Below, one piece after another: positions 58,865-59,458 of a DNA stretch of 64,000 bases (within the stretch, counting starts at the first letter, position 1; the number at the start of each line of letters is the position of its first letter). Source of the stretch: Escherichia coli (lineage in GTDB: Bacteria; Pseudomonadota; Gammaproteobacteria; Enterobacterales; Enterobacteriaceae); assembly GCF_009931435.1 (NCBI RefSeq), contig NZ_CP043415.1; one strand, 5' to 3'. A model generated the notes under the pieces. It had not been told where the DNA came from, made no database searches, and saw only the letters and a list, made by a program, of their open reading frames with translations. Both the position numbers and the translations under genes were made by a program.

Positions 58865-59112
58865 TGTCCCTCACCTTTCTCATCGCAGTTCACAAAATCC
58901 TTCTTCAAATCCCTGACCGTACAGGTTTTTACAATGTCAGGATTTTCAAAAACCGTACTCCGTGATGATTTATAAACATATGCCACAATGCGTTTCCCAC
59001 CCGCATCAGGTTCTGGTGCACTGACTTCACATAACGGAGGTGTTATTCCGGACTCATACAGCACCGGATAATTTATTTTTTTGACGCTGCCATCAGAAAC
59101 CAGCTTATTCAT
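58861..59112 (-). CDS. trbG: TrbG
   Basis: 83 aa, F order. Confidence 0.8.
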   Translation of the reverse strand: MNKLVSDGSVKKINYPVLYESGITPPLCEVSAPEPDAGGKRIVAYVYKSSRSTVFENPDIVKTCTVRDLKKDFVNCDEKGEGQ

Positions 59113-59458
59113 CGAAGGGCTCCTTATATTTCTGAATAATTCTGTCGATTAGTTCTTTCACCGGAACAGATTTTCCGCCACCGGATTGTCCGGCAACCAC
59201 AATATGCCCCGGAGAAGAAAATAAACTCATCGACATACCCTTCTTCATCACACCGACAGCAGCCATATTAAAATTGTCCGGCAATGACTCAGAACCGAAT
59301 TTCTCCGGTGCAGGAAGTACGATTCTTGTGGCGCAGTTACTGAGAACAGCATGCATAAAATCATCTGACACGGTTTTACCCGGCACAGAGAGGGCTGTAA
59401 TAACATTAATATTACGCATGTTCATTTTTATCTCCGTTGTTTCTGTTTGTTCTGTCAT
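59105..59458 (-). CDS. trbD: TrbD (start codon uncertain; F TrbD is ~65 aa)
   Basis: ORF between traP and trbG; the longest ORF overlaps traP by 47 nt, so the true start is probably internal. Confidence 0.6.
   Translation of the reverse strand: MTEQTETTEIKMNMRNINVITALSVPGKTVSDDFMHAVLSNCATRIVLPAPEKFGSESLPDNFNMAAVGVMKKGMSMSLFSSPGHIVVAGQSGGGKSVPVKELIDRIIQKYKEPFDE

What the first reader, a model, noticed from the sequence alone, without database searches (positions are those of the whole stretch)
59105..59458. Walker A-like motif in the tiny trbD product
The C-terminal region reads GHIVVAGQSGGGKSV (GxxxxGKS), yet the protein is far too small for a P-loop NTPase fold. This may be a relic of a larger ancestral ATPase gene or a coincidence; the annotated TrbD start is also uncertain (several in-frame ATGs).
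Basis: seen in the sequence. Interest (0 to 1): 0.25.

Follow-up and report, generated by a model that had tools for sequence, protein, structure and literature searches.

The report
Conserved ATPase-like loop in tiny TrbD
The small F-plasmid transfer gene trbD really does carry a conserved nucleotide-binding (Walker A) loop and looks like a scrambled leftover of a conjugation ATPase, but it cannot be an ATPase itself and the classic F plasmid has deleted the loop, so it is a minor evolutionary curiosity.

Summary
The minus-strand ORF 59105-59458 reads GHIVVAGQSGGGKSV, with the Walker A motif at 59168-59191. The likely true gene is the 106-aa form starting at 59425.

The motif is not a coincidence. 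It is kept in three diverged allele classes of F-type TrbD: GQSGGGKS, GQPCAGKT or GQPGAGKT, and GMPGAGKT in pSLT-type plasmids. In the diverged C-terminal third, the columns that stay conserved are the motif's key residues, the hydrophobic strand before it and the helix after it.

No longer homologue exists. An exhaustive HMMER search of 1.84 billion representative proteins found only TrbD-sized proteins.

Both halves of TrbD weakly but consistently resemble VirB4-type conjugation ATPases, in reversed order. The N-terminal DUF2689 part matches VirB4's C-terminal motif. The C-terminal part matches the Walker A strand, loop and helix. There is no Walker B and no sensor glutamine, so ATP hydrolysis is excluded.

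The reference F plasmid carries a 104-bp deletion (window 59137-59240) that removes the loop. About 39% of trbD-bearing plasmids lack the segment. Related Klebsiella and Enterobacter F-like plasmids lack trbD entirely. dN/dS is about 0.44.

The best reading is a dispensable ATPase-derived relic. Interest is low to moderate.

The parts
59105..59425 (-). trbD coding sequence, the likely true 106-aa form (MNMRNINV...EPFDE)
   Evidence: NCBIfam NF010282 aligns aa 12-117 of the long ORF to model positions 1-106 at 234 bits. The identical plasmid CP099191.1 is annotated this way. The start context is invariant across four plasmid types.
59105..59458 (-). Longest ORF (117 aa), as given in the finding. 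The first 11 codons lie inside traP and are probably not translated as TrbD.
   Evidence: ORF list. The upstream extension is variable or absent in other alleles.
59432..59435 (-). Shine-Dalgarno GGAG, 6 nt upstream of the M12 ATG (59423-59425)
   Evidence: Read from the sequence. Conserved in the four-way DNA alignment.
59168..59191 (-). Walker A motif GQSGGGKS (aa 90-97 of the 117-aa ORF, aa 79-86 of the 106-aa protein)
   Evidence: In about 98 cluster representatives G90 is kept in 95/97, G95 in 97/99, K96 in 96/99 and S/T97 in 91/98.
59132..59209 (-). Strand, P-loop and helix segment (GHIVVAGQSGGGKSVPVKELIDRIIQ), resembling the Walker A region of VirB4, VirD4 and FtsK ATPases
   Evidence: Pfam FtsK_SpoIIIE E=3.8e-4 on aa 68-109. 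hhalign against a VirB4 alignment gives Prob 90.7, P=1.3e-6. With a VirB4 Walker-A-region HMM, TrbD ranks second after TraC among 809 window ORFs, and first with the TrwK-type model.
59300..59407 (-). N-terminal DUF2689 segment (NVITALSVPGKTVSDDFMHAVLSNCATRIVLPAPEKF), resembling the C-terminal conserved motif of VirB4 ATPases
   Evidence: NCBIfam VirB4_CagE matches aa 18-53 to model positions 669-704 of 792, and TrbE matches at 669-706 of 815. hhalign scores 30.7 against shuffled controls of mean 12.0, max 19.4, 0/300. A C-motif HMM built without F-type sequences gives TrbD E=0.0042, with the next ORF at E=1.5.
59137..59240 (-). 104-bp segment present here but deleted in the reference F plasmid. 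It encodes GMSMSLFSSPGHIVVAGQSGGGKSVPVKELIDRI.
   Evidence: Pairwise alignments with L001 and with F NC_002483. The F product is 65 aa and ends GVMKNSEI.

Best explanation
TrbD is a small, soluble accessory protein of the E. coli/Salmonella F-like tra operon. It is translationally coupled between traP and trbG/traV.

Its sequence is best explained as a miniaturised, rearranged remnant of a VirB4-type (FtsK-HerA superfamily) conjugation ATPase. Two motif-bearing pieces survive:
- The N-terminal DUF2689 part corresponds to the VirB4 C-terminal strand-helix-strand motif.
- The C-terminal part corresponds to the strand, Walker A loop and helix.

They lie in the opposite order to VirB4. Everything between them is missing, including Walker B and the catalytic and sensor residues. 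TrbD therefore cannot hydrolyse ATP.

The Walker A loop is an inherited feature, ancestral to all TrbD alleles. It is kept under moderate purifying selection but is dispensable for conjugation, as the natural deletion in F shows.

**Shown:** the motif's presence, its conservation, the F deletion, the absence of longer homologues, the narrow distribution, and dN/dS below 1.

**Inferred:** homology to VirB4, the rearrangement scenario, and the lack of catalytic function.
For: 1. **Conservation across diverged alleles.** A = GQSGGGKS; B = GQPCAGKT, GHPCAGKT, GQPGAGKT or GQPGTGKT; pSLT-type = GMPGAGKT, GMSGAGKT or GMLGAGKT. In the diverged last third, the low-entropy columns are V87, V88, G90, Q91, G95, K96, S/T97, E102, L103, I104 and K112, which is a strand, P-loop and helix signature.
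2. **Unbiased family scans.** After TrbD's own models, the recurring hits are VirB4_CagE (32/42 members, best E 1.9e-4), SXT_TraD (18/42) and TrbE (11/42) in NCBIfam, and FtsK_SpoIIIE (26/42, best E 1.4e-4), Pox_A32, HerA/DUF87 and TrwB in Pfam.
3. **The N-terminal half alone.** It hits only VirB4 or TrbE among 18,950 families, always at model positions 667-711.
4. **Profile-profile comparison.** Against a 17-sequence VirB4 alignment it finds both segments (P=1.3e-6 and P=5.8e-4). The N-terminal match scores 30.7 against column-shuffled controls of 12.0 +/- 2.2, max 19.4.
5. **Reciprocal test within the window.** HMMs of the VirB4 C-motif and of the Walker A region each rank TrbD directly after TraC among 809 six-frame ORFs. 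With TrwK-type-only models TrbD ranks first.
6. **Dispensability.** F NC_002483 lacks the 104-bp P-loop segment. The N-terminal part of trbD is found in 3578 PLSDB records, but the P-loop segment in only 2198. Klebsiella and Enterobacter F-like plasmids lack trbD.
7. **Still a coding gene under constraint.** dN/dS is 0.44, against 0.43 for traP and 0.25 for traV.
Against: - The ATPase similarities are short (18-40 residues) and individually weak. The N-terminal half alone gives HMMER E-values of 0.02-0.17. All are far below family cutoffs (16 bits against 643).
- Any P-loop segment matches many P-loop families.
- No intermediate or longer form was found in 1.84 billion representatives, so the descent cannot be traced.
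- The reversed order needs an ad hoc rearrangement.
- The TrbD alignment is shallow (at least 58% identity apart from the pSLT type), so conservation partly reflects recent common ancestry.
- About 10% of cluster representatives carry non-canonical motifs (GGRKS, GGGKC, AGKE, AGKI).
- AlphaFold2 gave no confident fold (pLDDT 51 and 52), so there is no structural confirmation.
- The dN/dS estimate rests on only 8 plasmids, and dS between alleles is saturated.
Confidence: 0.55

Rival explanations
1. The loop is functional today. TrbD is a minimal phosphate- or nucleotide-binding protein, or a subunit mimic that docks onto the TraC or TraD hexamer. It modulates pilus assembly or DNA transfer without hydrolysing ATP itself.
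For: The key Walker A residues are conserved while the x positions vary within and between alleles. dN/dS is below 1. The retained elements would correspond to strands beta4, beta5 and beta1, which are neighbours (order 5-1-4) in the ASCE sheet; this rests on established fold knowledge and was not tested here. Engineered beta-(P-loop)-alpha polypeptides are reported to bind nucleotides and nucleic acids (abstracts of bioRxiv 10.1101/2020.07.30.228619 and PMC10119929).
Against: F deletes the loop and still conjugates. About 39% of trbD-bearing plasmids lack the segment, and most of them are typed as conjugative. Whole lineages lack trbD. Motif-breaking variants circulate. No confident fold was obtained. 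No experimental data on TrbD turned up in the searchable literature.
Confidence: 0.2
2. TrbD is a lineage-restricted orphan protein unrelated to ATPases. The Walker A-like string and the VirB4-like N-terminal pattern are chance or convergent resemblances. They are conserved only because the whole family is young.
For: The family is shallow and confined to enterobacterial F-like plasmids. All ATPase hits fall below curated cutoffs. The bare motif also occurs by chance elsewhere in the window, in TraH. The PDB profile search found nothing significant.
Against: Two independent segments both point to the same ATPase family. In window-wide tests they rank directly after TraC. The N-terminal match exceeds 300 of 300 shuffles. 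The motif survives in the C-terminal third, where alleles share only about 30% identity. The extended motif has a chance probability of 0.08%.
Confidence: 0.15
3. The trbD ORF is kept open mainly to carry ribosomes from traP to trbG/traV by translational coupling. The peptide itself has no role.
For: The start and stop overlaps with both neighbours are tight: 14 nt with traP and 8 nt with trbG. In allele B the stop overlaps the traV ATG. Length and C-terminus vary greatly between plasmids. Other genes occupy the downstream slot.
Against: Selection for an open frame alone does not give dN/dS of 0.3-0.5 or residue-specific conservation. Klebsiella plasmids join traP to traV directly without it.
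Confidence: 0.1

Closest known systems
F-type TrbD family (NCBIfam PRK13724 series NF010280-NF010284; Pfam DUF2689 PF10894)
   Same: The window protein is a full member. NF010282 scores 234 bits, above its cutoff of 194. The gene sits between traP and trbG/traV, as in F, R100 and pSLT.
   Different: It is the undeleted form. The textbook F TrbD (65 aa) lacks the C-terminal 41 residues, including the Walker A loop. The family has no assigned function.
VirB4/TraC/TrbE/TrwK conjugation ATPases (TIGR00929; PDB 4AG5, 7O41)
   Same: Two short segments match. The strand, Walker A and helix match (GNTVVSGQPCAGKT or GHIVVAGQSGGGKS against TrwK NTMLIGQSSSGKT). The C-terminal motif matches (AVLSNCATRIVLPAP against TrwK-like VQQCATFIFLPNP).
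   Different: TrbD is 106 aa against about 800-875 aa. The order of the segments is reversed. There is no N-terminal domain, no Walker B and no sensor glutamine. The score is 16 bits against a cutoff of 643. TrbD resembles TrwK-type VirB4 more than the plasmid's own F-type TraC.
FtsK/SpoIIIE and VirD4-type coupling proteins (PF01580, TIGR03743, PF10412)
   Same: The Walker A region plus about 18 preceding residues aligns to model positions 25-65 of FtsK_SpoIIIE and 156-201 of SXT_TraD.
   Different: All scores are below the gathering thresholds. The plasmid's own TraD shows no significant pairwise similarity and does not match the C-motif HMM that TrbD matches.
RP4/P-type TrbD (VirB3 homologue)
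   Same: The name only.
   Different: P-type TrbD corresponds to F TraL and VirB3 (reviews PMC7555446 and PMC7690428). No VirB3 or P-type TrbD family hit was seen for this protein.
Engineered beta-(P-loop)-alpha prototype polypeptides
   Same: These are short polypeptides carrying only a strand, Walker A loop and helix, without Walker B (abstracts).
   Different: They are laboratory constructs. No binding data exist for TrbD, so the comparison is only a lead.

Membership tests
F-type TrbD (NCBIfam NF010282 / Pfam DUF2689) | Scores above the curated HMM cutoff | tested here: met
   NF010282 scores 234.4 bits (cutoff 194). DUF2689 scores 38.2 bits (cutoff 25).
F-type TrbD (NCBIfam NF010282 / Pfam DUF2689) | Position in the tra operon between traP and trbG/traV | tested here: met
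P-loop NTPase (ASCE-type ATPase) | Walker A GxxxxGK[ST] preceded by a hydrophobic strand | tested here: met
   IVVAGQSGGGKS is present and conserved in the family.
P-loop NTPase (ASCE-type ATPase) | Walker B (hhhhD/E) and a catalytic acidic residue downstream of Walker A | tested here: not met
   The protein ends 20 residues after the loop. No hhhhD/E is present in any allele.
P-loop NTPase (ASCE-type ATPase) | A complete alpha/beta core of at least five strands (roughly 150 aa or more) | tested here: not met
   The protein is 106 aa, or 74 aa in the pSLT type. AlphaFold2 gave no confident fold.
P-loop NTPase (ASCE-type ATPase) | Nucleotide binding or hydrolysis | not testable with these tools
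   Needs purified protein.
VirB4/TraC family (TIGR00929) | Full-length match above the family cutoff, including the N-terminal domain | tested here: not met
   16 bits against a cutoff of 643. Only model positions 435-456 and 667-707 are matched.
VirB4/TraC family (TIGR00929) | Collinear order Walker A, then Walker B, then C-terminal motif with the sensor glutamine (TQ/SQ) | tested here: not met
   The order is reversed. The position equivalent to Q is L or R (ITALS / ITARS).
FtsK/SpoIIIE (PF01580) | Reaches the Pfam gathering score | tested here: not met
   20.4 bits against 24, covering only model positions 25-65 of 221. 26 of 42 members give sub-threshold hits.
P-type TrbD / VirB3 | Sequence match to VirB3/TrbD_P models | tested here: not met
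   No such family appears among the hits at E up to 10.

The most novel reading that the evidence does not exclude
TrbD is a naturally occurring, circularly permuted mini P-loop protein. It would retain exactly the three strands that are neighbours in the ATPase core sheet (beta4, beta5 and beta1), plus the Walker A loop. It would either assemble on its own or insert into the TraC/TraD ATPase ring as a non-hydrolysing subunit mimic, binding nucleotide or DNA phosphate and tuning conjugation. That would make it a natural counterpart of the engineered beta-(P-loop)-alpha prototypes.
Probability: 0.1. Interest if true: 0.6.

Novelty: new variant of a known kind. Interest (0 to 1): 0.3.

Why it matters
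This corrects a textbook detail. The 65-aa TrbD of F is a deletion allele, and the common form is a 106-aa protein with a conserved Walker A loop.

If the VirB4 descent is right, TrbD shows how pieces of an essential secretion ATPase can persist as a small accessory gene inside the same kind of operon. It would also offer a natural test case for what a Walker A loop does without the rest of the fold.

Two practical points follow:
- Annotators should not call TrbD an ATPase.
- The FtsK-like Pfam hits on some TrbD entries are motif-level only.

The impact on understanding conjugation is small, because the segment, and indeed the gene, is dispensable.

Tried and rejected
1. **Longer homologues.** An exhaustive HMMER profile search of 1.84 billion representatives returned only TrbD-sized proteins. 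The single 1024-aa hit (P0164, E=8.5e-4) is a repeat-rich protein whose hit I judged spurious from its sequence. Word-indexed searches from allele A and from the pSLT type gave the same result.
2. **A "distant homologue" with a degenerate motif.** P0155 is an artefact. Its contig (Logan SRR33321306) is an ordinary trbD region with A and G swapped, and is 96.8% identical after swapping back.
3. **Structure.** Two AlphaFold2 runs (42 and 92 sequences) gave pLDDT 50.9 and 52.4 with inconsistent secondary structure. No fold search was run, because the matches would be meaningless.
4. **PDB sequence-profile search.** Only non-significant P-loop hits came back, with EccC and ATP synthase beta at E about 1.
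5. **Origin from the plasmid's own traC or traD.**
   - BLASTP was not significant.
   - Smith-Waterman gave high z-scores to TraC 437-504. These are driven by the P-loop, and the collinear upstream extension is weaker than the C-motif match found by hhalign.
   - TrbD is closer to TrwK-type VirB4 than to F-type TraC.
6. **trbG or other downstream ORFs as the rest of an ATPase.** TrbG has no Pfam hit. I read the 177-aa ORF in the same slot of pMccB17 as membrane-like from its sequence; it was not scanned.
7. **Reference plasmids.** Fetching R388 and RK2 by accession failed. A tblastn for diverse TraC sequences saturated with close relatives.
8. **Literature.** Nothing in the searchable library mentions a Walker motif or a function for F-type TrbD. 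Frost et al. 1994 is not held.
9. **Promoter and terminator scan.** Nothing above the shuffle expectation.

Full report
**What is there.** The last 30 kb of the window is an F-like tra operon on the minus strand:
- traA 63048-63413
- traL 62722-63033
- traE 62134-62700
- traK 61419-62147
- traB 59992-61419
- traP 59412-60002
- the ORF in question, 59105-59458
- trbG 58861-59112
- traV 58349-58864
- traR 57993-58214
- traC 55206-57833

The region is 100% identical to E. coli plasmid CP099191.1 (IncFIA/FIB/FIC). The 117-aa ORF contains GHIVVAGQSGGGKSV. The strict Walker A GQSGGGKS lies at nt 59168-59191. The protein is an F-type TrbD (NCBIfam NF010282, 234 bits against a cutoff of 194; Pfam DUF2689).

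**Start codon.** The likely start is M12 (ATG 59423-59425), preceded by GGAG at 59432-59435. This context is invariant in four diverged plasmid types. The NCBIfam model and the annotation of the identical plasmid both begin there. That gives 106 aa. The start overlaps the traP stop by 14 nt, and the stop overlaps the trbG start by 8 nt.

**Is the motif more than chance?** Alone, it is barely so. The bare motif appears in 0.7% of shuffles of TrbD, and in 0.08% when a preceding hydrophobic strand is required. A chance-looking GCTVGGKS sits in TraH in the same window. Conservation is what counts.

Among 120 cluster representatives from a 5.8-billion-protein collection, there are two C-terminal allele classes:
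- A: GHIVVAGQSGGGKSVPVKELIDRIIQKYKEPFDE
- B: GNTVVSGQPCAGKTNLTAELISAVVGSNKKGEGQ, with GQPGAGKT and GQPGTGKT variants

They share only about 30% identity in that third, yet both keep GxxxxGK[ST]. The compact pSLT-type TrbD (74-81 aa) keeps GMPGAGKT, GMSGAGKT or GMLGAGKT directly after the DUF2689 part.

Column statistics over about 98 near-full-length representatives show which positions stay conserved in the diverged region. They are V87, V88, G90 (95/97), Q91, G95 (97/99), K96 (96/99), S/T97 (91/98), E102, L103, I104 and K112. That is a strand, a P-loop and a helix. About 10% of representatives carry broken motifs such as GGRKS, GGGKC, AGKE or AGKI.

**Longer homologues.** None were found. 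A profile of 42 TrbD sequences was scored by HMMER against all 1.84 billion representatives. It found 46 proteins, of which 45 are at most 122 aa. The remaining one is a 1024-aa repeat-rich protein whose hit I judged spurious.

One apparent distant homologue with a degenerate loop (P0155) is an artefact. Its Logan contig is a normal trbD region with A and G exchanged, and is 96.8% identical after swapping back.

**Distribution and dispensability.**
- The reference F plasmid (NC_002483) is near-identical to the window here, except for a 104-bp deletion (window 59137-59240). The deletion removes GMSMSLFSSPGHIVVAGQSGGGKSVPVKELIDRI and shifts the frame, giving the classical 65-aa TrbD ending GVMKNSEI.
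- All other allele classes have the segment, and by my reading of the junction a short AGAA repeat flanks it. The F form is therefore taken to be derived.
- In PLSDB, the N-terminal part of trbD is found in 3578 records, but the P-loop segment in only 2198. Of these, 940 cover at least 80% of the segment, which I take to be allele A; most of the rest match at 80-90% identity, consistent with allele B. So roughly 39% lack it, and most of those are typed as conjugative.
- R100-type plasmids lack trbG, and trbD abuts traV.
- pMccB17 has an unrelated 177-aa ORF in that slot.
- A Klebsiella IncFII/IncFIB F-like plasmid joins traP directly to traV. An Enterobacter F-like plasmid joins traB to traV.

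TrbD is thus a lineage-restricted accessory gene, and its loop is not needed for F conjugation. That F conjugates efficiently is established knowledge and was not tested here.

**Selection.** Pooled Nei-Gojobori estimates over 8 plasmids:

| Gene | dN/dS |
|---|---|
| trbD (whole) | 0.44 |
| trbD N-terminal 72 codons | 0.30 |
| trbD C-terminal part | 0.54 |
| traP | 0.43 |
| traV | 0.25 |

trbD evolves as a coding gene under moderate constraint, not as a neutral pseudogene. The sample is small, and dS between alleles is near saturation.

**What does it resemble?** Scans against all of Pfam and NCBIfam give TrbD's own models first. After them come, repeatedly, ATPases of the FtsK-HerA group used in conjugation:

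| Family | Library | Members hit (of 42) | Best E |
|---|---|---|---|
| VirB4_CagE | NCBIfam | 32 | 1.9e-4 |
| SXT_TraD | NCBIfam | 18 | 1.7e-3 |
| TrbE | NCBIfam | 11 | 0.051 |
| FtsK_SpoIIIE | Pfam | 26 | 1.4e-4 |

TraC and EssC (NCBIfam) and Pox_A32, HerA/DUF87 and TrwB (Pfam) also recur.

VirB4 is matched in two places:
- TrbD aa about 87-107 matches the Walker A region (model positions 435-456 of 792).
- TrbD aa about 17-53 matches the VirB4 C-terminal conserved motif (positions 667-707).

The order is therefore reversed. The N-terminal half submitted alone hits only VirB4 or TrbE among 18,950 families, always at that position, with weak E-values of 0.02-0.17.

I built a 17-sequence VirB4 alignment from three subfamilies: F-type TraC, TrwK-like, and Firmicute 4AG5-like. 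Results against it were:
- hhalign finds both segments. The P-loop gives Prob 90.7, P=1.3e-6. The N-terminal motif matches TraC 735-764 with P=5.8e-4.
- The N-terminal half alone scores 30.7. Across 300 column-shuffled controls the mean is 12.0, the sd 2.2 and the max 19.4. The reversed control scores 11.2.
- The match is best to the TrwK-like subfamily, for example AVLSNCATRIVLPAP against VQQCATFIFLPNP.

Reciprocally, I searched HMMs of the two VirB4 motifs against all 809 six-frame ORFs of the window:
- The C-motif HMM built without F-type sequences gives TraC at E=1.8e-5, then TrbD at E=0.0042 (12.5 bits). The next ORF is at E=1.5, and TraD is not hit.
- The VirB4 Walker-A-region HMM ranks TrbD second after TraC, ahead of TraD and the IstB-like ATPase; TraI is not among the eight best hits listed. 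It ranks TrbD first with the TrwK-only model.

Both halves therefore point to one source type, a VirB4-class ATPase. The source is closer to the TrwK/TrbE type than to the plasmid's own TraC.

**What it cannot be.** No Walker B follows the loop. The position equivalent to VirB4's sensor glutamine is L or R. The protein is 106 aa, or 74 aa in pSLT-type plasmids. It fails every defining feature of a P-loop NTPase except Walker A. It also fails all curated cutoffs for VirB4 and FtsK.

**Structure.** Two AlphaFold2 runs gave low confidence (pLDDT 50.9 and 52.4) and mutually inconsistent secondary structure. A PDB profile search found nothing significant. No structural support could be obtained.

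**Interpretation.** The most likely reading (about 0.55) is that TrbD is a dispensable accessory mini-protein. It would descend from rearranged fragments of a VirB4-type ATPase gene, with the Walker A loop as a non-catalytic inherited feature ancestral to the family.

How the order became reversed is inference only. Possible routes are a tandem duplication followed by deletions, or a fusion of two fragments.

The rivals are:
- a present-day phosphate- or nucleotide-binding or ATPase-modulating role (about 0.2);
- chance or convergent resemblance in an orphan protein (about 0.15);
- an ORF kept mainly for translational coupling (about 0.1).

**Novelty.** The gene family is annotated but has no known function. 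I found no mention of the motif, of the VirB4-like N-terminal segment, or of F's allele being a deletion form in the searchable literature. The key 1994 review could not be read. This is a modest curiosity, not a new system.

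Noticed in passing
L005 1-1108 (Logan SRR33321306 contig; protein P0155): A public assembly contig encodes an apparently 35%-identical TrbD. 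It is really an ordinary traP-trbD-trbG region with every A and G exchanged, and is 96.8% identical to the window after swapping back. Such artefactual sequences sit in the large protein collections and can pose as distant homologues.
   Followed up: yes
window 58861-59112 (trbG) and L002 862-1182, L008 1358-1891: The slot between trbD and traV is variable. It holds trbG (83 aa, no Pfam hit) here and in F, nothing in R100-type plasmids, and a 177-aa ORF in pMccB17 that looks membrane-like by eye. TrbG and allele-B TrbD both end in ...KGEGQ, because both abut the same Shine-Dalgarno/ATG junction of traV. This suggests cassette-like insertion at a repeated coupling junction.
   Followed up: partly
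window about 46924-46947 (-), inside the 457-aa ORF 46147-47520 (by position, probably traH): A bare GxxxxGKS string (GCTVGGKS) occurs with no preceding hydrophobic strand. It looks like a chance Walker A match and is a useful internal control for the motif's background rate.
   Followed up: no
window 7129-7983 (+), with upstream ORF 6185-7207: An ORF with a canonical Walker A ([13 protein letters not shown]) looks like an IS21-family IstB helper ATPase next to its transposase. This is an insertion sequence in the non-tra part of the window.
   Followed up: no
L006 1-1030 and L007 1278-3228: A Klebsiella F-like plasmid (IncFIB/IncFII) has traP followed directly by traV. An Enterobacter F-like plasmid has traB followed directly by traV. 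traP, trbD and trbG are therefore successive lineage-specific additions to the traB-traV interval.
   Followed up: partly
proteins P0031, P0042, P0044, P0120, P0150: Natural structural variants occur at the locus. There is a 5-codon tandem duplication inside the loop (GGGKSGGGKS) and a 4-codon deletion in the loop (VAGGKS). A TrbD-TrbG fusion (183 aa) and a TraB-TrbD fusion lacking traP (204 aa) also occur. In the pSLT type there is a duplicated REYNFS / QEYNFS just before the loop. The region appears prone to slippage and deletion.
   Followed up: no
window 59137-59240 versus L014 (F, NC_002483): The widely used reference F plasmid carries a 104-bp frameshifting deletion in trbD relative to this and most other F-like plasmids. 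A short AGAA repeat sits at the junction. The canonical 65-aa TrbD is therefore a truncated allele.
   Followed up: yes
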